A stretch of DNA of 64,000 nt from Escherichia phage vB_EcoM-G157lw. The notes below the pieces were generated by a model. It saw nothing but the letters and a program-made list of their open reading frames with translations, searched no databases and was not told the origin of the DNA. Below are positions 3,176-60,447 of the stretch, one piece after another. The position numbers were made by a program, and so were the translations under genes. The stretch is taken from the sequence record OK331996.1. One strand, 5' to 3'. The number at the start of each line of letters is the position of its first letter. The stretch's first letter is position 1.

Positions 3176-3628
3176 ATGGCATATTCTGGAAAATGGGTTC
3201 CTAAAAATATATCAAAATATAGAGGTGACCCTAAAAAAATTACGTATAGATCAAATTGGGAAAAATTCTTTTTTGAATGGTTAGATAAAAATCCAGAAAT
3301 TATTGCATGGGGTAGTGAAACAGCAGTAATTCCTTATTTTTGTAATGCAGAAGGGAAAAAACGTAGATACTTCATGGATATTTGGATGAAAGATTCTTCT
3401 GGACAAGAATTTTTTATTGAAATAAAACCTAAAAAAGAAACACAACCACCAGTTAAACCAGCACATCTAACAACTGCAGCGAAGAAAAGATTTATGAATG
3501 AAATTTATACCTGGTCTGTGAACACTGACAAATGGAAAGCAGCACAATCTTTAGCTGAAAAGCGTGGAATAAAATTTAGAATTCTAACAGAAGATGGATT
3601 ACGAGCTCTTGGCTTTAAGGGGGCATAA
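3176..3628 (+). CDS. 4: head completion protein gp4, 150 aa
   Basis: Track ORF, RBS AGGAG upstream, T4 gene order 53/4/2/3/1. Confidence 0.85.
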
Positions 3629-4452
3629 TGGCTATTTTTCAAATAATTAATGAAAGCACTCCCCAAGTTCCAAAGGTTAAGCAATCATTAAACGAAAAGA
3701 AATGGATTCAGATAGGTCTTGAATATAAAAAGGCCAAAGCAAAAGGAATGACAGGAAAGCAATTTGCTGAAGAAAGAGGAATCAAATACTCTACGTTTAC
3801 TTCGGCAATGTCAAAATATGCTTCAGGAATTAAAACAGCTGAAAAGATTCAAAAGCTTGAATCAAAACCAATGAATAAGCTCAATAAGCAAGAAAGACAA
3901 CTGCTTATGATAAATTCATTCAGACAAACATTGCGTGATAAAATTCGTAATGAAGGCGCAGCAATTAATAATAAAACCAGAAAATGGTTTGCTGAAACTA
4001 TTAAGCAAGTAAAAGGACATAAAGTTGTTCGCCCGCAGCCGGGACGAATATATGCTTTTGCTTATGATGCTAAACACAAGGAAACTCTTCCTTACTGGGA
4101 TAAATTTCCTTTGATAATTTACCTTGGTTTAGGTAAGCATAATTTAATGTACGGATTAAACTTGCACTATATTCCACCTAAAGCTCGTCAGCAATTTCTA
4201 GAAGAGCTTTTAAAGCAATATGCAAATACACCTACTATTACTAATAAAACGAAATTAAAAATTGATTGGAGTCAAGTGAAAGGATTTAGGGGTGCAGACC
4301 AAATGATTAAGGCATATATACCCGGTAATATTATGGGTAGCCTTGTTGAAATCGCCCCGAAAGACTGGGCGAACGTTGTGTTGATGCCACTTCAGCAGTT
4401 CGTTTCAAAAGGAAAACGTTTCTCTGCAAACAAAGTCTGGTCAAATATCTAA
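3628..4452 (+). CDS. 2: DNA end protector protein gp2, 274 aa
   Basis: TAATG overlap with gene 4; size matches T4 gp2. Confidence 0.85.
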
Positions 4453-6638: not shown

Positions 6639-6923
6639 ATGAAAACTTATCAAGAATTCACTTCAACGACTAACGCTTCTACTTTGACTGAAGCGACCCT
6701 TACTTCTGAAGTTATTAAAGCAAACAAAGGACGTGAAGGTAAACCGATGATTAGCCTGGTTGATGGCGAAGAAGTCAAAGGTACTGTTTACCTGGGTGAT
6801 GGATGGTCCGCTAAGAAAGATGGTGCTACAATCGTTATCTCCCCTGCTGAAGAAACTGCTTTGTTTAAAGCCAAGCATATTTCAGTAGCTCAGCTTAAAA
6901 TTATTGCTAAAAATCTTTTGTAA
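6639..6923 (+). CDS. ipI: internal protein I-locus product with N-terminal capsid targeting sequence, 94 aa
   Basis: N-terminus MKTYQEFTSTTNASTLTE matches the T4 internal-protein CTS consensus MKTYQEF. Confidence 0.75.
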   Translation: MKTYQEFTSTTNASTLTEATLTSEVIKANKGREGKPMISLVDGEEVKGTVYLGDGWSAKKDGATIVISPAEETALFKAKHISVAQLKIIAKNLL

Positions 6924-6924
6924 T

Positions 6925-6975
6925 AAATTTTTCGCAAAGTTGTTTACACAGGGTTTTAGTAGTGATACTATTACC
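6925..6975 (+). promoter_or_regulatory. T4-type early promoter
   Basis: tttttcgcaaagttGTTTACa ... gtgatactat. Confidence 0.55.
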
Positions 6976-6999
6976 CTATCAACTACTGAGGAGAATAAA

Positions 7000-7955: not shown

Positions 7956-8028
7956 TGGGAATTAGCCAAGTTGGTAAGGCACTGGATTTTGATTCCAGGA
8001 TGCAAAGGTTCGAGTCCTTTATTCCCAG
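7956..8028 (+). tRNA. tRNA-Gln (anticodon UUG)
   Basis: Hand-folded cloverleaf: acceptor tgggaat/attccca, anticodon loop ttTTGat, T-loop ttcgagt. Confidence 0.8.
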
Positions 8029-8029
8029 C

Positions 8030-8116
8030 GCGAGAATGGTCAAATTGGTAAAGGCACAGCACTTAAAATGCTGCGGAATGATTTCCTTGTGGGTTCGAGT
8101 CCCACTTCTCGCACCA
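8030..8116 (+). tRNA. tRNA-Leu (anticodon UAA), type II, CCA encoded
   Basis: Acceptor gcgagaa/ttctcgc, anticodon loop ctTAAaa, long variable arm. Confidence 0.8.
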
Positions 8117-8121
8117 AATTT

Positions 8122-8195
<74 letters not shown>

Positions 8196-8205
8196 ATTTA
8201 ATTTA

Positions 8206-8279
8206 CTCCGTGTAGCTCAGTTTGGTAGAGCGCCTGATTTGGGATCAGGAGGTCCAAGGTTCAAATCCTTGTATGGAGA
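8206..8279 (+). tRNA. tRNA-Pro (anticodon UGG)
   Basis: Anticodon stem cctga/tcagg, loop ttTGGga; acceptor with two G-U pairs. Confidence 0.75.
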
Positions 8280-8281
8280 CT

Positions 8282-8371
8282 GGAGGCGTGGCAGAGTGGT
8301 TTAATGCACCGGTCTTGAAAACCGGCAGTCGCTCCGGCGACTCATAGGTTCAAATCCTATCGCCTCCGCCA
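8282..8371 (+). tRNA. tRNA-Ser (anticodon UGA), type II
   Basis: Acceptor ggaggcg/cgcctcc, anticodon loop ctTGAaa, long variable arm. Confidence 0.8.
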
Positions 8372-8376
8372 GTTTT

Positions 8377-8452
8377 GCTGATTTAGCTCAGTAGGTAGAG
8401 CAACTCACTTGTAATGAGAAGGTCGGCGGTTCGATTCCGTCAATCAGCACCA
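8377..8452 (+). tRNA. tRNA-Thr (anticodon UGU)
   Basis: Acceptor gctgatt/aatcagc, anticodon loop ctTGTaa. Confidence 0.8.
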
Positions 8453-8453
8453 A

Positions 8454-8528
8454 GGCCCTGTAGCTGGAAGGTTCAAGCAAGCGACTCATAATCGCCAGAT
8501 GGTGGTTCAATTCCACCCAGGGCCACCA
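8454..8528 (+). tRNA. tRNA-Ile, anticodon CAU (lysidine type as in T4; formally Met by sequence)
   Basis: Acceptor ggccctg/cagggcc, anticodon loop ctCATaa. Confidence 0.7.
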
Positions 8529-8540
8529 AATTATGAATTA

Positions 8541-8627
8541 GGGGAGTTATCCCGTAGAGGTAGCGGTGTGGACTGTAAATCCATTGTCATTGCGACTCGG
8601 GTGGTTCGACTCCATCACTCCCCACCA
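8541..8627 (+). tRNA. tRNA-Tyr (anticodon GUA), type II
   Basis: Acceptor ggggagt/actcccc, anticodon loop ctGTAaa, long variable arm, T-loop ttcgact. Confidence 0.7.
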
Positions 8628-8631
8628 ATTT

Positions 8632-8706
8632 GGATGTGTAGCTCAATGGCAGAGCGATCGCCTGTTAAGCGATTGGTTATAGGTTCGAATCCTATCACGT
8701 CCGCCA
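8632..8706 (+). tRNA. tRNA-Asn (anticodon GUU)
   Basis: Acceptor ggatgtg/cacgtcc, anticodon stem atcgc/gcgat, loop ctGTTaa. Confidence 0.75.
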
Positions 8707-8820
8707 AATTTGTGACAGTTGTCACATTAATATCTACTTGACGCGATTATCGGGGTTGAACTGATCACTCTTCTCTTAATTTCGTGTGAAGACATCTTGA
8801 TTGTTGGAGTAGGTATTAAT

Positions 8821-8896
8821 GTGGCCGTAGTTCAGTTGGTAGAACTCGAGATTGTGATTCTCGTAGTCATGGGTTCGACTCCCATCGGTCACCCCA
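8821..8896 (+). tRNA. tRNA-His (anticodon GUG)
   Basis: Anticodon stem cgaga/tctcg, loop ttGTGat, T-arm atggg/cccat. Confidence 0.75.
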
Positions 8897-8900
8897 ATTA

Positions 8901-8976
8901 CGGGGCATAGCTCAGAAGGAAGAGCAAGGACCTTCTAAGTCCTAGGTCGTAGGTTCGATCCCTACTGCCTCGACCA
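8901..8976 (+). tRNA. tRNA-Arg (anticodon UCU)
   Basis: Anticodon stem aggac/gtcct, loop ctTCTaa, T-loop ttcgatc. Confidence 0.8.
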
Positions 8977-8992
8977 ATTAAGTGAGGAAAAT

Positions 8993-9343
8993 ATGAAAGG
9001 TAATGTTTATTTAGTAGTTCATGATTTAACATTTTACTTCAATGAATATGAAAAACATATCTCATTTCGTGAAATTAATTTACTTTATCAACACGCGGAT
9101 TATATTTATATTCAAAACGAATTTGGTCATTGGCAATTTCTCAAAAATCGTTCATTTGGCTTAGATGGTTACGAATACTTTGAACGTAAAGACCTTTTAG
9201 ATAAAATTCCGTTATCTACACAATATCAAAATCACAAGTCTTTATATAAATGCCGTCCAATTCGAAATGCTGAATCTGCGTATGAAGCAATTGATTTATG
9301 GCGTAAACGTCGTGAACAGATTGATGCTTTAAAAGAATATTAA
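8993..9343 (+). CDS. hypothetical protein, 116 aa
   Basis: ATG after GTGAGGAAA RBS immediately downstream of tRNA-Arg. Confidence 0.6.
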   Translation: MKGNVYLVVHDLTFYFNEYEKHISFREINLLYQHADYIYIQNEFGHWQFLKNRSFGLDGYEYFERKDLLDKIPLSTQYQNHKSLYKCRPIRNAESAYEAIDLWRKRREQIDALKEY

Positions 9344-9349
9344 GAAACC

Positions 9350-9650
9350 GGGTCGCTACCGGTAAGTCGTCGGACTGATGTTCCCTGAGTAAGGAATTGT
9401 GTTAATAAATCTTTATGATTTGTTGATGCCCTCTTACATCACAGCTGAAACGGCGCACCGAATTATCGATTCGAGGAAATATCTTTGCCGTAAGCCGAGT
9501 AGCGTTTTTGACGGAACGTTCGGATATGGTCGAGATATGGCCTTTTAAAAATATTGAGTAGCGTCAACTGCTTGATAACCGGGTTCGAATCCCGGCGTTT
9601 CGTACAAACACTTGCCTTAGCAGGTGGAACCCCGACAAGGTTGCCGCAAG
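9350..9650 (+). ncRNA. candidate stable small RNA(s) with a tRNA-like T-arm (position of T4 species 1/2 RNAs)
   Basis: Non-coding 300 nt with several hairpins including ccgggttcgaatcccgg; ends in a terminator. Confidence 0.35.
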
Positions 9651-9651
9651 G

Positions 9652-9682
9652 CTTAGCCCCAGCCGAAAGGTTGGGGCTTTTT
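9652..9682 (+). terminator. terminator hairpin; upstream copy of a 31-bp direct repeat
   Basis: cttagccccagccgaaaggttggggcttttt. Confidence 0.6.
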
Positions 9683-9684
9683 AG

Positions 9685-9692
9685 TATAAATA
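9685..9692 (+). promoter_or_regulatory. T4-type late promoter TATAAATA
   Basis: Exact TATAAATA about 35 nt upstream of ATG 9729. Confidence 0.5.
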
Positions 9693-9728
9693 AGTATATT
9701 AAATCTACAAATTAAAACAGGAAATAAG

Positions 9729-10202
9729 ATGAAATCATATACTCAATTTTTAAATGAAGCGGTGTTAAATGAAGCATCTAGCACCGAAATTCAAGCTGTC
9801 GCAAAAGCAGCCATTGCAGCGGGTAAATATTCTTACAAAGATGCTTCTGATGAATCACGATTCCAGTTCGCACGCGACATGAAAGCGGAAGGATTTACGG
9901 GAAATGCAGTTAGTATGGCCTGGAAAAGTTTAGTTGCTACTGGCGCTGCTTTTGCAAAGGCTTCGGGTAAACCTGCTCCTAAAGCAGATCCTAAAGTCGC
10001 ACAAGAGAAAAATATTGTTAAAGGAATTATCTCCAAATATGAAGCTATCCTTAAAGAGCTTTTAGTAATCAAAACTGAAGGCCAAAAACTAGCTCGTGCT
10101 TATAGTTTCAAAGATAACCCACATGCTCACTCTCTTGAGTATGTTGAAGACATCCAAAAAATTATTAAAGACCGCATTTGGTCTGCTAAACAAATCAAAT
10201 AA
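9729..10202 (+). CDS. internal-protein-like protein with CTS-like N-terminus, 157 aa
   Basis: N-terminus MKSYTQFLNEAVLNE resembles CTS; flanked by direct-repeat terminators. Confidence 0.7.
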   Translation: MKSYTQFLNEAVLNEASSTEIQAVAKAAIAAGKYSYKDASDESRFQFARDMKAEGFTGNAVSMAWKSLVATGAAFAKASGKPAPKADPKVAQEKNIVKGIISKYEAILKELLVIKTEGQKLARAYSFKDNPHAHSLEYVEDIQKIIKDRIWSAKQIK

Positions 10203-10206
10203 CATT

Positions 10207-10237
10207 CTTAGCCCTAGCCGAAAGGTTGGGGCTTTTT
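10207..10237 (+). terminator. terminator hairpin; downstream copy of the 31-bp direct repeat
   Basis: cttagccctagccgaaaggttggggcttttt, one mismatch to the copy at 9652. Confidence 0.6.
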
Positions 10238-10330
10238 GGTATCTAGGCCTTTCCAGGCCTCTCTAGACATCATTTAGTTTCTACCCTTTATAATATATTA
10301 TCCTATCCTTTGATTTCCCCTCCCTGCCCT

Positions 10331-10443
10331 AGAATTCCCCAAAACTTTTTAAAAATTTTTTCACAAAACTGTTTACATCCTTGTCCTTCCATGGTACTAT
10401 ACAACTATCAACTACTGATACAGAAAACAACTTGGAGAATGAA
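10331..10443 (+). repeat. promoter-leader module copy A (early promoter plus conserved leader GGTACTATACAACTATCAACTACTGATACAG)
   Basis: Near-identical copies at 25195, 27351 and 53045; the GTTTAC -35 hexamer within this copy is at 10371-10376. Confidence 0.75.
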
Positions 10444-10707
10444 ATGGATAATTACGGTGAACTGTTCAACTTCTTTATGAAATGTGTTTCAGAAGATTTC
10501 GGTCGTACGGTGAATGATATTAAAGTTATCGGTCCTGATCATCCGATGTTTGAAACCTATGCAGTAATGGGTAATGAAGATGGTCAGTGGTATACTGTAA
10601 AGGTTGTGATTAACATGTTCACTGCTGAAGGTTATGTTAAACTGTCTTCTAAAGTTTACCATGATAACGACGAAATCGCAGAAGAATATTTCAATAATAT
10701 GAAATAA
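10444..10707 (+). CDS. hypothetical acidic protein, 87 aa
   Basis: ATG 8 nt after GGAG; track ORF N-terminus is an artefact of translating the leader. Confidence 0.6.
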   Translation: MDNYGELFNFFMKCVSEDFGRTVNDIKVIGPDHPMFETYAVMGNEDGQWYTVKVVINMFTAEGYVKLSSKVYHDNDEIAEEYFNNMK

Positions 10708-13771: not shown

Positions 13772-14780
<1,009 letters not shown>

Positions 14781-14828
14781 AGTTGCTTGAAGAGACAAAT
14801 TACTAATTAAAATATTTAAAGGAAACCC

Positions 14829-15302
14829 ATGAAAACATATCAAGAATTTATCACTGAAGCAGCTATTAATTCTCAAATTATTGCTGAATCTTTTACTGAT
14901 CTTTTGAAATTTAAAAAAGGTCAAAAAATTACTGCTGTATTGGATGATGGTACAGAAGTTGAGATGGATGTACAGGGATATAATTATGCAGTAGATGGAA
15001 AATTGTATAATAAATCTCATGCTAAATTTGATTCATTTGACGACTTTGTTAATGCAGTTGAAGATGAAAAAACTCGTCGATCCATTGCAACTGGTGATGC
15101 TAAGGTTCTTATGGCACATGGTCATGAACGCATTCGCGCTAAACAGAATAAAATGGGTGAAGATAATTTTGCATTAGTTGGTTATCAATCTGGTAAACAA
15201 ACCTATGGTTATCAGCGTACTGCTACCATGTATAATAAAAATGGTAAAATTGCCTTTGTGAATAGTAAAGGTTCTATTCAGTACGTTAAATCGTTCAAAT
15301 AA
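14829..15302 (+). CDS. internal protein (ipII/ipIII locus) with canonical CTS, 157 aa
   Basis: N-terminus MKTYQEFITEAAINSQIIAE; follows gene e as the ip genes do in T4. Confidence 0.75.
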   Translation: MKTYQEFITEAAINSQIIAESFTDLLKFKKGQKITAVLDDGTEVEMDVQGYNYAVDGKLYNKSHAKFDSFDDFVNAVEDEKTRRSIATGDAKVLMAHGHERIRAKQNKMGEDNFALVGYQSGKQTYGYQRTATMYNKNGKIAFVNSKGSIQYVKSFK

Positions 15303-15442
15303 TATGGGAACAACCTGGACCTCATGATTCTATGAGGGATTCCCGCCAACCTGTAATAAGGTCGAGTCCAGGTGCGGTAATGGGTAAATACAGAAATGGA
15401 CAATTCATGCGCCATGGAATGGCCCAAACTTAGAGAGAAGAA

Positions 15443-15982
15443 ATGAGAACATTTTTAACTGGTCCTTATCTATCCCTGATGAATGCTTTTACACACCATT
15501 CTGATGCTAGAGTAGAAGAAATTTGTAAAAACGAATATATCCCGCCATTTGAAGAATTACTTAAACAGTACTGCACACTTCGACTAGACGGTGGACGTCA
15601 ATCTGGTAAATCAATTGCTGTGACTAACTTTGCTGCTAATTGGCTGTATGATGGCGGAACAGTTATTGTTCTTTCTAATACTTCAGCTTACGCTAAAATT
15701 TCTGCAAATAACATTAAAAAGGAATTTTCGCGTTATTCTAATGATGATATACGTTTTCGTTTATTTACTGATTCTGTGCGCAGTTTTATTGGTAATAAAG
15801 GAAGCAAGTTCAGAGGTTTATCGCTTTCGCGAATTTTGTATATAATTGATGAGCCTGTCAAATCTCCTGATATGGATAAGATTTATAGTGTCCATATTGA
15901 CACTGTACACTACTGCTGTAATAGTAAATGTTGCATTGGTGGTATTACTCGTCCTCAATTTTTTGTGATTGGAATGCAATGA
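15443..15982 (+). CDS. small P-loop NTPase-like protein, 179 aa
   Basis: Walker A-like GGRQSGKS and Walker B-like ILYIIDEP. Confidence 0.6.
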   Translation: MRTFLTGPYLSLMNAFTHHSDARVEEICKNEYIPPFEELLKQYCTLRLDGGRQSGKSIAVTNFAANWLYDGGTVIVLSNTSAYAKISANNIKKEFSRYSNDDIRFRLFTDSVRSFIGNKGSKFRGLSLSRILYIIDEPVKSPDMDKIYSVHIDTVHYCCNSKCCIGGITRPQFFVIGMQ

Positions 15983-25196: not shown

Positions 25197-25284
25197 ATTT
25201 CAAAAATTTTTCACAAAACGGTTTACAAGCATAAAGCTTTATGGTACTATACAACTATCAACTGATACGGATTTGGAGAATAAA
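25195..25284 (+). repeat. promoter-leader module copy B
   Basis: tttcacaaaacgGTTTACaagc ... atggtactatacaactatcaactgatac. Confidence 0.75.
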
Positions 25285-26253
25285 ATGAAAACTGTAACTA
25301 TCAATAAGGGTATCTACTTCGGTAAAGAAATCTCTGGAACTTTTGAGCTCTTAGGCGAATGGTTCCCGGATAATGCTCCGGTAGATGCACAAGGAGATGG
25401 TAAAGTTTTTGTTGAAATTGACGGTAAACGTCGCGGTGTTTGGGTTTACAAATCAGACATTTCATATGATGGTGTAAAAGTTGAAGAAGTTAAAGAATCG
25501 TATGAAGATATGAAAACCCGCATTAATAAAAGATTTAATGTTATGGGAATGATGACGAATGGTATTATTAACGGAAACATTCGTTCATTAATTATTTCTG
25601 GTGCGGCGGGTATTGGTAAAACGTATTCTTTAGATAAAGCTTTAAATAAAGCAAATGATATTGGATACATTGAATATAAAAGCATTAATGGTAAAATCTC
25701 TGGTATTGGTCTTTATGAACAGCTTTGGAATAATCGTGAAGAGAATTCTGTCCTTTTGATTGATGATGTGGATGTTTTCTCTGATATGGACATTCTTAAT
25801 CTTCTGAAAGCTGCTCTGGACACTGGAGAGACCCGTAAAGTCTGCTGGAGCACTGCATCTTCTTACTTAGAAGAAAAAGGAATTGAGCGTGAGTTTGAAT
25901 TTAAAGGAACGATTGTTTTTATCACAAACGTTGACATTGACCGCGAATTAGACCGTGGTACTAAACTTGCTCCACATTTACAAGCATTAGTGTCCCGCTC
26001 AGTTTATTTGGATTTGGGTGTTCACACTAATGAAGAAATTATGGTCAGGGTTGAAGATGTTATTCTTTCAACTGACATGATGCAAAAGCGCGGTCTTTCT
26101 GATGAAGAAACTTATAAAGCATTATCATGGATGAAAGTCAATGTTAATCGTTTACGCAATGTTTCACTGCGTACTGCTCTTTATCTTGCTGACTTTATTA
26201 TGACCGACAAAAACGGTTGGGAAGAAATCGCTGAAACGGTATTATTAAAATGA
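25285..26253 (+). CDS. AAA-type ATPase, 322 aa
   Basis: Walker A GAAGIGKT, Walker B LLIDDVD; ATG after the GGAG of the conserved leader. Confidence 0.7.
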   Translation: MKTVTINKGIYFGKEISGTFELLGEWFPDNAPVDAQGDGKVFVEIDGKRRGVWVYKSDISYDGVKVEEVKESYEDMKTRINKRFNVMGMMTNGIINGNIRSLIISGAAGIGKTYSLDKALNKANDIGYIEYKSINGKISGIGLYEQLWNNREENSVLLIDDVDVFSDMDILNLLKAALDTGETRKVCWSTASSYLEEKGIEREFEFKGTIVFITNVDIDRELDRGTKLAPHLQALVSRSVYLDLGVHTNEEIMVRVEDVILSTDMMQKRGLSDEETYKALSWMKVNVNRLRNVSLRTALYLADFIMTDKNGWEEIAETVLLK

Positions 26254-27353: not shown

Positions 27354-27413
27354 TTGTTTACAAGACCGTTCCTCTGTGGTACTATACAACTATCAACTAC
27401 GGAGGAACAGAAA
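27351..27413 (+). repeat. promoter-leader module copy C
   Basis: GTTTACaagaccgttcctctgtggtactatacaactatcaactac; two mismatches to copy D. Confidence 0.75.
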
Positions 27414-27941
27414 ATGAACGCTAAAGATATTTTCAACCTGGTAAATTATAACGATGGTAAATTTAAATCTGAAGCTCAAAGCAAGTTCTTTAATGATGTC
27501 TCAATCGGTGGTGAAATCACTGTTGATGGAGGACAAATTTACAAATCCCGTTGGAATTGGATCGTTATTATCGATGAGATTGGTATTGTAGAAATTTACA
27601 AGAATACGAATAAAAATCGTACATTACACTGGTCTCGTGATACTAACGAACAGTACAAAAAGGATAAAGCATCTAAATTATCTCGTGTAACTCAAGAAGA
27701 TATTGAGTTCATCAAGAAAGATATTTTGATGTATGATAACTTAATTGCTGAAGAGCAAGCTGTTATTGATAAATTTGACGAGATTAAAGCTTCTCGTGAA
27801 ATTCCTGATTTTATGAAAGAATCAGTAAATGAACGATACACTCTCATTTCAGAGCGTATTGAAACTTACAAAAAGCAAAGAGCTGAACGCCAGAATACTC
27901 TTCGGAAGTTTGAAGAACGGTTAAAGACGGTACTCGCATAA
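27414..27941 (+). CDS. hypothetical protein, C-terminal coiled coil, 175 aa
   Basis: ATG after GGAGGAA of the leader. Confidence 0.6.
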   Translation: MNAKDIFNLVNYNDGKFKSEAQSKFFNDVSIGGEITVDGGQIYKSRWNWIVIIDEIGIVEIYKNTNKNRTLHWSRDTNEQYKKDKASKLSRVTQEDIEFIKKDILMYDNLIAEEQAVIDKFDEIKASREIPDFMKESVNERYTLISERIETYKKQRAERQNTLRKFEERLKTVLA

Positions 27942-53044: not shown

Positions 53045-53140
53045 AGAATTCCCTAAAAAATTTTCACAAAACTGTTTACAAGACTGTTCCTCTGCGGTAC
53101 TATACAACTATCAACTACTGATACAGATTTGGAGAATAAA
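53045..53140 (+). repeat. promoter-leader module copy D
   Basis: gaattccctaaaaaattttcacaaaactGTTTACaagactgttcctctgcggtactatacaactatcaactactgatacag. Confidence 0.75.
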
Positions 53141-53377
53141 ATGAAAATTGTTATGGGATGCTTAGCAGTTTGTTTAGTTGCATTAGCAGCAGTTCCATTT
53201 GTTAGTGTTGAAAATGATACTCAACCTATGATTGAATCTAGCACCGTTATTCACACTAATGGTAAAATATCAGTTAAAATTGATGATAATCTTCATGTGA
53301 ATACAAATGGATCTTTAGGTGTACAAATAGGTAATACCTGCATAAGCACTACTGGAGTAATTACTACTTGCATTTGA
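53141..53377 (+). CDS. small secreted protein with signal peptide, 78 aa
   Basis: ATG after the leader GGAG; N-terminal hydrophobic signal. Confidence 0.55.
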   Translation: MKIVMGCLAVCLVALAAVPFVSVENDTQPMIESSTVIHTNGKISVKIDDNLHVNTNGSLGVQIGNTCISTTGVITTCI

Positions 53378-60282: not shown

Positions 60283-60447
60283 ATGAAAACATATAAAGAA
60301 TTTATTAAAGAAGATATGGTAGCTGGAGATTCAGGTGGTAATCCTGAAAATATCTCTACTGGAACAACGTCAGGCGCTGTAGTAAATAAAGGTCCTGAAC
60401 AGATTCCTAAAAAGAAGAAAGAGGAATCTAAAGAAAAAGAAGAGTAA
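60283..60447 (+). CDS. small protein (61.1 position), 54 aa, CTS-like N-terminus
   Basis: MKTYKEFIKE...; TAATATG coupling upstream, ends 2 nt before gene 61. Confidence 0.45.
   Translation: MKTYKEFIKEDMVAGDSGGNPENISTGTTSGAVVNKGPEQIPKKKKEESKEKEE

What the first reader, a model, noticed from the sequence alone, without database searches (positions are those of the whole stretch)
9652..10237. Internal-protein-like gene in a cassette flanked by 31-bp direct-repeat terminators
The ORF at 9729-10202 starts MKSYTQFLNEAVLNE, resembling the capsid targeting sequence of T4 internal proteins (MKTYQEF..., cleaved by the prohead protease after L/I-x-E). It is bracketed by two near-identical terminator hairpins (9652-9682 and 10207-10237, one mismatch) and preceded by a late promoter TATAAATA (9685-9692). 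CTS-bearing genes are also present at 6639 (ipI locus) and 14829 (ipII/ipIII locus, 157 aa, not the size of either T4 protein). Proteins with a CTS are packaged and injected with the DNA; T4 IPI* blocks the GmrS/GmrD restriction system, so variable CTS cargo is a plausible anti-defence payload. The flanking repeats suggest the cassette was acquired by recombination.
Basis: partly seen in the sequence, partly recalled or inferred. Interest (0 to 1): 0.7.

Follow-up and report, generated by a model that had tools for sequence, protein, structure and literature searches.

The report
Likely new T4-type internal protein cassette
A late-expressed gene that T4 lacks but most of its close relatives carry has the short N-terminal tag that loads proteins into the phage head for injection, so it is probably an uncharacterised injected (possibly anti-defence) protein, in a slot where such genes come and go by recombination between repeated terminators.

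Summary
The window is an RB32/RB51-like Tequatrovirus. Two near-identical terminator hairpins (9652-9687 and 10207-10242) bracket TATAAATA (9685-9692) and a 157-aa ORF (9729-10202). T4 has one terminator copy and no ORF, an exact 555-bp difference.

The ORF is a real gene (dN/dS 0.08) of phrog_2280, annotated everywhere as hypothetical. Its N-terminus, MKSYTQFLNE|AVLNE|A, keeps the four residues shown experimentally to matter in the IPIII capsid targeting sequence: Y4 and F7 for targeting, position 8 (L for I) and E10 for gp21 cleavage. This leader stays conserved in homologues only 24-30% identical, across five Tevenvirinae genera. In each locus read, the gene follows the tRNA cluster and a late-type promoter.

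The slot is modular. It is empty in T4 and T6, holds this gene, holds a 187-aa paralogue that also carries the leader, or holds both. All junctions lie at the terminator.

The gene is probably ancestral at this site and lost in T4, not acquired here. Packaging, cleavage and anti-defence function remain inferred, and the fold gives no functional clue. GenBank (RB51) already notes the repeat. I class it as a new member of a known kind, of moderate interest.

The parts
9466..9604 (+). rnaC-like stable RNA (species 1), the last gene of the tRNA/stable-RNA cluster. Context: the left border of the slot. Coordinates are approximate.
   Evidence: Read by eye against the annotated T4 rnaC (L002 6409-6547, minus strand). 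A megablast probe of 9560-9700 lies under 'rnaC' features in several records.
9652..9687 (+). Terminator copy 1: hairpin 9655-9678, then a T-run. It ends the tRNA/rnaC transcripts and is the left arm of the direct repeat.
   Evidence: The orthologous single copy in T4 and T6 is shown.
9685..9692 (+). T4 late-promoter motif TATAAATA, 37 nt upstream of the ATG and directly after the terminator.
   Evidence: The same arrangement is present in Jiaodavirus phiKp_22 and Muldoonvirus VP8. No sigma-70-like site lies between the terminator and the ATG.
9719..9724 (+). Shine-Dalgarno-like AGGAAA, 4 nt before the ATG.
   Evidence: Read directly from the sequence. The ipI, ipII and ipIII starts have the same AGGAAA context.
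9729..9773 (+). Predicted propeptide, the capsid targeting sequence: MKSYTQFLNE|AVLNE|. It has two tandem L-N-E gp21-type sites, each followed by Ala.
   Evidence: The AlphaFold model has pLDDT below 50 for residues 4-14, consistent with a flexible leader.
9729..10202 (+). 157-aa ORF (RB32ORF132c family, phrog_2280). The predicted mature protein is about 15.5-16 kDa, pI 9.5 and all-helical.
10207..10242 (+). Terminator copy 2: hairpin 10210-10233, then a T-run. It is the right arm of the direct repeat and ends the cassette.
10372..10400 (+). Sigma-70-type early promoter (TTTACA-17-TACTAT with TG) for e.8, whose ATG is at 10444. Context: the right border of the slot.
   Evidence: T4 has the same sequence directly after its single terminator.

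Best explanation
The ORF at 9729-10202 encodes a previously unrecognised member of the T4-type internal proteins.

Proposed mechanism:
1. The gene is transcribed only late, from TATAAATA. The tRNA-operon terminator upstream and its own terminator copy downstream insulate it. (Inferred from motifs.)
2. The first 10 residues (MKSYTQFLNE) act as a capsid targeting sequence that carries the protein into the prohead scaffolding core. (Inferred from conservation of the experimentally mapped residues.)
3. The prohead protease gp21 removes the leader after L-N-E10 and/or L-N-E15. (Inferred from the L/I-X-E|A motif.)
4. The basic, helical mature protein of about 15.5-16 kDa stays in the head with the DNA and enters the cell with it. 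(Inferred.)
5. There it most likely neutralises a host defence that acts at DNA entry. By analogy with every characterised CTS cargo, this would be a type IV (modification-dependent) restriction enzyme variant. (This is the weakest step; about 0.4 on its own.)

Locus behaviour, shown by comparison: the gene lies in a modular slot between rnaC and e.8. The slot holds 0, 1 or 2 paralogous CTS genes, and units are lost, gained and permuted by recombination inside the repeated terminator. The empty T4 site is most simply a deletion between the two repeat copies.
For: It is a gene:
- dN/dS is 0.08 against the Mosigvirus orthologue.
- tblastn matches 511 phage records, 469 of them over at least 80% of the query.
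- It matches phrog_2280 over its full length, E 2.9e-60.

The leader:
- T4 ipII and ipIII start MKTYQEFIAE|A, and ipI starts MKTFKEF...ITE|A.
- Targeting depends on residues 4 and 7 and processing on residues 8 and 10. The gp21 site is L/I-X-E (PMC9026906).
- The candidate has Y4, F7, L8, E10 and then Ala.
- The motif hits only 3 of 655 ORFs in the window.
- Across 11 members of 24-80% identity, only M1, F7, F47 and F75 are invariant and L8 is nearly so. Position 4 is always Tyr or Phe, and an L/I-x-E follows in all members; it ends 8-15 residues from the N-terminus.

Co-occurrence:
- The 187-aa paralogue starts MKTYAEFLTE|A.
- Klebsiella phage phiKp_22 has CTS genes at the ipI locus, after e, and at this locus.
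- Cronobacter phage VP8 has two tandem CTS ORFs here, behind GGTATAAATA.

Timing:
- TATAAATA lies right after the terminator in three genera.
- There is no sigma-70 site in between.

Modular slot: the junction tables show rnaC | ORF157 | ORF187 | e.8 joined at ...GGGGCTTTTT in T4, T6, Manna, RB14, RB51, G9062, HMD-9, JK1, EcNP1 and PhAPEC2.

Function by analogy: Ip1, Ip2 and Ip3 each block a distinct GmrSD (PMC12373910). Bas37_0260 blocks McrBC.
Against: - I found no virion proteomics or N-terminal sequencing for this family. No paper in the searchable library names it.
- Five of the ten leader residues differ from T4 IPII/IPIII (S3, T5, Q6, L8, N9). Only residues 2, 4, 7 and 8 were probed by suppression in T4, and residue 10 by an Asp substitution.
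- Some homologues have a shortened or shifted leader (MKFKEFLAE, MISFNEFVDGNLITE).
- The TATAAATA count in the window is at chance level.
- The mature part has no Pfam match and no significant structural match to any protein of known function, including known anti-restriction proteins.
- There is an internal L-K-E at residues 108-110, which gp21 could in principle cut.
Confidence: 0.65

Rival explanations
1. The protein is packaged through the CTS but has no anti-defence role. It acts as a basic DNA-associated filler or condensing protein inside the head, as was long assumed for IPII and IPIII, or it assists DNA ejection.
For: The mature protein is basic (pI 9.5; 24 K+R against 16-17 D+E). It has a Pro/Lys-rich linker (PAPKADPK) and long helices. 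No similarity to any known inhibitor was found.
Against: All CTS cargos with an assigned function are defence inhibitors, including the basic IPII and IPIII (PMC12373910). The gene is dispensable and polymorphic: T4 and T6 lack it. That fits an accessory host-range function better than a structural one.
Confidence: 0.2
2. The protein is not packaged. The CTS-like N-terminus would be a relic of descent or recombination with ip genes, or a conserved translation-initiation region, and the protein would act inside the infected cell late in infection.
For: There is no proteomic evidence. Gene 61.1 (60283-60447) also begins MKTYKEFIKE although it sits in the primase/helicase region. So the motif alone does not prove that a protein is an internal protein. 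Half of the leader residues differ from T4.
Against: A relic would not stay conserved while the rest of the protein diverges to 24-30% identity. F7 is invariant, L8 is nearly so, position 4 is always aromatic, and L/I-x-E is retained. The gene has a late promoter in three genera. At the DNA level the leader codons are diverged from ipII and ipIII, so recent recombination does not explain the similarity.
Confidence: 0.12
3. The cassette was recently acquired by this phage lineage from outside, by insertion at the rnaC terminator.
For: T4, T6, Manna and RB10 have a precise empty site with one terminator copy. The unit carries its own promoter and terminator, like a moron.
Against: Orthologues occupy the same post-tRNA slot in Mosigvirus, Jiaodavirus and Muldoonvirus. 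About 470 records carry the gene, against at most about 80 empty sites. No homologue was found outside T4-like phages in 5.8 billion clusters or 1.84 billion representatives. Recombination between direct repeats deletes as readily as it inserts.
Confidence: 0.2

Closest known systems
T4 internal proteins IPI, IPII and IPIII (CTS-bearing, gp21-processed, injected; inhibitors of GmrSD-type type IV restriction enzymes)
   Same: The N-terminal leader is of the MKTYQEFIAE type, with aromatic-4, Phe-7, L/I-8, Glu-10 and then Ala. The protein is small and the gene is non-essential, polymorphic among T-even phages and preceded by an AGGAAA ribosome-binding site.
   Different: The mature part shows no sequence similarity (no PF11634 or DUF7412 match). 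The locus is a third one, between rnaC and e.8, not the ipI or ipII/ipIII loci. Expression is predicted to be late only. There are two tandem LNE sites. Nothing has been shown experimentally.
Ip4 to Ip12-type internal proteins of T-even phages found by their signal sequence (Repoila et al. 1994, as cited in PMC12373910), and Bas37_0260, the McrBC inhibitor at the ipI locus
   Same: They are recognised only by the shared N-terminal leader, and the mature parts are otherwise unrelated. They sit in variable cassette-like slots with conserved flanks. The window itself carries Ip4 at 14829.
   Different: Those genes lie at the two classical IP loci. This family (phrog_2280) lies after the tRNA/rnaC cluster. 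It is not labelled Ip in any record inspected.
RB14ncORF136c / RB69ORF149c (187 aa)
   Same: It belongs to the same PHROG (phrog_2280, E 1.6e-53) and has the same leader (MKTYAEFLTE|A). It occupies the same slot, alone or in tandem with this gene.
   Different: It is only about 28% identical. It has a different downstream terminator and a non-canonical late-promoter region.
PeSL cassettes (promoter-early stem-loops) of RB49/phi1 (Arbiol et al. 2010, PMC2839356), and lambdoid 'morons'
   Same: An accessory gene is flanked by repeated stem-loop regulatory elements. A related phage has a single element in its place, and recombination within the stem-loop is implied.
   Different: The repeat here is a terminator followed by a late promoter, not a sigma-70 early promoter. 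The repeat is 31-36 nt rather than about 100 nt. Mini-circles were not tested.

Membership tests
T4-type internal proteins (CTS cargo) | An N-terminal capsid targeting sequence of about 10 residues, with the targeting determinants at positions 4 (Tyr) and 7 (Phe) | tested here: met
   MKSYTQFLNE against T4 MKTYQEFIAE. The determinants are taken from PMC9026906. The motif hits only 3 of 655 window ORFs. F7 is invariant and position 4 is always Tyr or Phe in 11 diverse homologues.
T4-type internal proteins (CTS cargo) | A gp21 prohead-protease site L/I-X-E| at the end of the leader (positions 8 and 10), typically before Ala | tested here: met
   L8-N9-E10|A11 and L13-N14-E15|A16. The motif is taken from PMC9026906. 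L/I-x-E is retained in all homologues, although displaced in two of them.
T4-type internal proteins (CTS cargo) | Expression when proheads assemble (late transcription) | tested here: inconclusive
   TATAAATA lies 37 nt upstream, right after a terminator, and is conserved in Jiaodavirus and Muldoonvirus. The motif frequency in the window is at chance level, and there are no transcript data.
T4-type internal proteins (CTS cargo) | The processed protein is physically present in mature virions and is injected with the DNA | not testable with these tools
   No proteomic report was found.
T4-type internal proteins (CTS cargo) | A dispensable gene with presence/absence or replacement polymorphism among close relatives | tested here: met
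   The slot is empty in T4, T6, Manna and RB10. It holds ORF157 only (window, RB51, JK1), ORF187 only (RB14), or both (G9062, HMD-9, EcNP1, PhAPEC2).
T4-type internal proteins (CTS cargo) | Inhibition of a host defence (type IV restriction) by the mature protein | not testable with these tools
   This rests only on analogy with Ip1-3 and Bas37_0260. The fold search gave no match to a known inhibitor.
IPI (PF11634) / Ip4 (DUF7412, PF24183) | Sequence homology of the mature domain | tested here: not met
   The 157-aa ORF has no Pfam hit at E up to 0.1, whereas 6639 matches PF11634 and 14829 matches PF24183.
PeSL mobile regulatory cassettes (Arbiol 2010) | Repeated stem-loop elements flank an accessory ORF, with a single element at the empty site in a relative | tested here: met
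PeSL mobile regulatory cassettes (Arbiol 2010) | A strong sigma-70-like early promoter within the repeated element | tested here: not met
   There is no sigma-70-like site between 9683 and 9729. The promoter motif is the late TATAAATA and lies mostly outside the repeat.

The most novel reading that the evidence does not exclude
phrog_2280 proteins define a third, ancient internal-protein locus of the Tevenvirinae, just after the tRNA/rnaC cluster. Their injected mature forms would inhibit a defence not yet linked to internal proteins: a different class of entry-stage immunity, not another GmrSD or McrBC variant. The terminator-plus-late-promoter repeats would be a late-gene counterpart of PeSLs, shuffling injected cargo between co-infecting phages.
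Probability: 0.25. Interest if true: 0.6.

Novelty: new member of a known kind. Interest (0 to 1): 0.45.

Why it matters
Every T-even internal protein studied so far has turned out to be a specific inhibitor of a type IV restriction enzyme (Ip1, Ip2, Ip3, Bas37_0260). Each one also helped reveal or define the host system it targets.

This family is carried by roughly two thirds of the sequenced Tequatrovirus and Mosigvirus records that contain the rnaC region, including many phages proposed for therapy or biocontrol. It is annotated only as hypothetical. T4 lacks it, which may explain why it has been overlooked.

If it is packaged, it is a ready-made probe for an unknown host defence and a host-range determinant. 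The 0/1/2-cassette slot is also a clean natural example of terminator-mediated gene shuffling in lytic phages. The prediction can be tested directly with standard virion mass spectrometry and a deletion mutant.

Tried and rejected
- Pfam, NCBIfam and PHROG annotation of the ORF gave only phrog_2280, of unknown function.
- An AlphaFold2 model (pLDDT 75) searched with Foldseek against PDB and BFVD matched nothing of known function. The only hits were its own family and an uncharacterised Serratia phage PS2 protein. No functional inference is possible from the fold.
- A profile search of 1.84 billion representatives found 13 proteins. All those inspected carry the same leader, and none is outside this small family.
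- Literature searches for the locus names (RB32ORF132c, RB69ORF149c, RB14ncORF136c) and for T4-like virion proteomics found nothing on this family. Repoila 1994 is not held.
- I tested whether the two repeat copies evolve in concert within each genome. The result is only partial. Both Mosigvirus copies share a genus-specific stem variant, but Tequatrovirus genomes mix variants. I make no strong claim.
- I suspected homology between the N-domain and SP18 gp147, which occupies the same slot. BLASTP aligned only the Lys/Pro linker (E 0.014), so I rejected it.
- 'Not a gene' is rejected by dN/dS of 0.08.
- Rfam has no family for rnaC or rnaD, so only tRNAs were returned.

Full report
**Context**

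The window is a Tequatrovirus closely related to RB32, RB51 and RB68. A 951-nt probe across the feature is 98-99% identical to many such genomes. The gene order is as follows:
- gene 1, 57A and 57B;
- ipI at 6639;
- trna.2-4 and eleven tRNAs (7956-8976);
- an RB69ORF150c-like ORF;
- rnaD and rnaC (about 9400-9604);
- the feature;
- e.8 (ATG at 10444), then onward to nudE, e (14246) and Ip4 (14829).

**Observation**

- The repeat is 9652-9687 / 10207-10242: 36 nt at 94% identity, with the 31-nt core carrying one mismatch. None of 100 shuffles gave two matches.
- Each copy folds into a 10-bp hairpin with a GAAA loop and a U-run (z about -3.5). The mismatch becomes a G-U pair.
- The terminator scan reports both copies.
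- In phage HMD-9 the second copy carries a compensatory C-G to T-A change, which argues that the hairpin itself is under selection.
- TATAAATA is at 9685-9692. It occurs 11 times in the window against 10.6 expected, so only its placement matters. It sits directly after a terminator and 37 nt before the ATG, ahead of an AGGAAA ribosome-binding site. No sigma-70-like site lies in between.
- Jiaodavirus phiKp_22 (AGTATAAATAT) and Muldoonvirus VP8 (GGTATAAATAGG) have the same arrangement.

**It is a gene**
- The ORF belongs to phrog_2280, of unknown function (E 2.9e-60, full length), and has no Pfam or NCBIfam match.
- tblastn finds it in 511 phage records, 469 of them at 80% coverage or more. It is always annotated 'hypothetical'.
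- dN/dS against the Mosigvirus orthologue PhAPEC2_134 is 0.08, with dS 1.65.
- Searches of 5.8 billion clusters and 1.84 billion representatives return only 13 proteins each. The named hits all come from T4-like phages.

**The leader**

T4 ipII and ipIII begin MKTYQEFIAE|A, and ipI begins MKTFKEFTSTTTPVSTITE|A. According to the review PMC9026906:
- the first 10 residues of IPIII suffice for packaging;
- targeting depends mainly on residues 4 and 7, and processing on residues 8 and 10;
- gp21 cuts after L/I-X-E.

The candidate reads MKSYTQFLNE|AVLNE|A. It keeps Y4, F7, L8 and E10 followed by Ala, with a duplicated LNE|A site.

The strict pattern MK[ST]Y..F[ILV].E matches only 3 of 655 ATG ORFs of at least 40 aa in six frames: this ORF, Ip4, and a gene 61.1-like ORF.

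The strongest argument is evolutionary. I aligned 11 family members of 24-80% identity from Tequatrovirus, Mosigvirus, Jiaodavirus, Yersinia phage fHe-Yen9-01, Cronobacter phage VP8 and metagenomes.
- The only invariant columns are M1, F7, F47 and F75, and L8 is nearly invariant.
- Position 4 is always Tyr or Phe.
- An L/I-x-E follows in every member. Examples are MKSYAEFLTE|Q, MKFKEFLAE|A, MLEYSEFLKE|L, MLKFNEFLAE|G, MINFSDFLNE|G, MKSFSSFLNE|G and MISFNEFVDGNLITE|S.

A vestigial or recently recombined 5' end would not behave this way. At the DNA level the leader codons have diverged from those of ipII and ipIII. The AlphaFold model gives pLDDT below 50 for residues 4-14, as expected for a flexible propeptide.

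**The mature protein**

After cleavage it would be 142-147 aa, 15.5-16 kDa, with pI about 9.5. The model (mean pLDDT 75) shows three parts:
- a three-helix N-domain (residues 18-71), conserved in all genera;
- a Pro/Lys-rich linker (PAPKADPK);
- a long helical hairpin (residues 88-154), which differs between the Tequatrovirus/Mosigvirus type and the Klebsiella/Yersinia type.

Foldseek against PDB gave nothing significant. Against BFVD it matched only its own family and an uncharacterised Serratia phage PS2 protein. The activity therefore cannot be read from the fold.

**The locus is modular**

T4 has one terminator copy. Its left flank equals the flank of copy 1 and its right flank equals the flank of copy 2. 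The window thus differs from T4 by exactly one unit of 555 bp: late promoter, ORF and terminator. Junction tables for twelve phages show four states:
- empty: T4, T6, Manna;
- ORF157 only: window, RB51, JK1;
- ORF187 only: RB14;
- ORF157 plus ORF187 in tandem: G9062, HMD-9, EcNP1, and Mosigvirus PhAPEC2.

ORF187 (RB14ncORF136c / RB69ORF149c) occurs in 165 records. It also belongs to phrog_2280 (E 1.6e-53) and starts MKTYAEFLTE|A, so it is a paralogue with the same leader.

Every junction lies at ...GGGGCTTTTT of the terminator. Three right-hand flank types (e.8 promoter region, ORF157 promoter, ORF187 upstream region) combine with two left-hand flank types (rnaC end, ORF157 3' end) as expected for recombination within the hairpin.

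The paralogues are only about 28% identical, yet the terminator copies are 94-100% identical. The repeats therefore cannot simply be relics of the old duplication. They must be kept alike by selection on the hairpin, by homogenisation, or by recent exchange.

Gaprivervirus SP18 has unrelated early genes without a CTS in the slot.

**Direction of the event**

The counts below are of records and include RefSeq/GenBank duplicates.
- A T4-type empty junction is covered at 80% or more in at most about 80 records.
- About 470 records carry ORF157.
- The rnaC/terminator probe hits 672 records.

Orthologues occupy the same position in every locus I read: after the last tRNA or stable RNA, behind a terminator and a late-type promoter motif, and before the e.8 early promoter. 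These loci are Mosigvirus, Jiaodavirus, Muldoonvirus and a metagenomic contig. The locus of the Yersinia phage homologue was not read. The simplest reading is an ancestral post-tRNA internal-protein locus that T4 and T6 lost by deletion between the direct repeats. The same repeats would equally allow re-insertion from a co-infecting relative.

**Function**

This part is inference. In the papers read here:
- Ip1 inhibits GmrSD of strain CT596;
- Ip2 and Ip3 inhibit distinct GmrSD variants (PMC12373910);
- IPIII is needed for growth on ECOR17 and works without its CTS when supplied in trans (bioRxiv 10.1101/2022.04.14.488369);
- the CTS-bearing Bas37_0260 at the ipI locus inhibits McrBC (bioRxiv 10.1101/2025.11.20.689424).

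This window's phage lacks ipII, ipIII and denV (tblastn). It carries IPI, Ip4 and this gene, so its set of injected proteins differs from that of T4. An entry-stage anti-defence role is therefore the most likely one, but I rate that step at only about 0.4. A DNA-associated structural role is the main alternative.

**What is already known**

The gene is in hundreds of GenBank records. The RB51 record already notes 'flanked by 34 bp imperfect direct repeat'. Internal proteins defined only by their leader are an established class (Repoila 1994, as cited), and shuffling by repeated stem-loops is established for PeSLs (PMC2839356).

Neither the annotation nor the searchable literature records the following:
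- that this family carries the leader;
- that it marks a third, conserved internal-protein locus with tandem paralogues;
- that the repeats here are terminator and late-promoter units.

**Verdict**

It is a new member of a known kind, of moderate interest, and can be tested directly.

Noticed in passing
window 60283-60447 (+): A 54-aa gene 61.1-like ORF, just upstream of primase gene 61, begins MKTYKEFIKE, a near-perfect CTS with an I-K-E site. It is conserved in about 1400 T4-like phage records, including T4. Its residues 1-38 hit the annotated gene 23 (major head protein) of Acinetobacter phage 133 at 45% identity (E 3e-4), which suggests similarity to the gp23 cleavage-site region. It sits among replication genes, so the motif alone does not prove that a protein is an internal protein.
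   Followed up: partly
window 14246-15982: Lysozyme e is followed directly by Ip4 (14829-15302; DUF7412, phrog_3155) and then by vs.8. tblastn finds no denV, ipII, ipIII or e.7 anywhere in the window. RB51 has denV between e and Ip4. The first 75 residues of Ip4 align weakly with T4 IPII (33% identity, E 2e-4).
   Followed up: partly
window 3628-4452 (+): The gp2-like protein (274 aa, a DNA-end protector located in the head) starts MAIFQIINE|S. The Klebsiella phage phiKp_22 homologue starts MAIFEFITE|A. This is an L/I-X-E motif at residues 7-9, reminiscent of a CTS with a gp21 site.
   Followed up: no
window 10341-10446; also 53055-53143, 25198-25287, 27377-27414, 6911-6989: The element of about 95 nt upstream of e.8 (an A/T-rich stretch plus the TTTACA-17-TACTAT early promoter and a ribosome-binding site) is repeated at 72-89% identity at four other places in the window. 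It is a dispersed extended early-promoter element, comparable to PeSL-type repeats.
   Followed up: partly
window 7956-9343: The tRNA array has 11 genes, including Tyr, Asn and His, which T4 does not have at this locus, and there is no segB homing endonuclease. A 116-aa ORF (8993-9343; phrog_3355, RB69ORF150c-like) sits between tRNA-Arg and rnaD.
   Followed up: no
L016 2786-3510 (Cronobacter phage vB_Cdu_VP8, OQ361773.1): Two CTS-bearing ORFs lie in one late unit after the tRNAs. A 72-aa ORF (MKSFTEFLTE|SADLTLTE|A) overlaps by ATGA the start of the phrog_2280 member (MKSFSSFLNE|G). A terminator plus GGTATAAATAGG precedes them, and a different terminator and an e.8-type early promoter follow.
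   Followed up: partly
L013 about 1378-1410 (phage HMD-9, second terminator copy): The second repeat copy reads AACCCTGACCGAAAGGTTAGGGCT. It carries a compensatory C-G to T-A change in the stem relative to other phages, which is evidence that the hairpin is selected.
   Followed up: no
L007 2232-3184 (Shigella phage SP18, Gaprivervirus): The same rnaC-to-e.6 slot holds two paralogous early genes (141 and 147 aa) without a CTS. They share a C-terminal ...SVQSYASNFRK motif, and each has its own sigma-70-like promoter. The slot therefore accepts cargo other than internal proteins in other genera.
   Followed up: no
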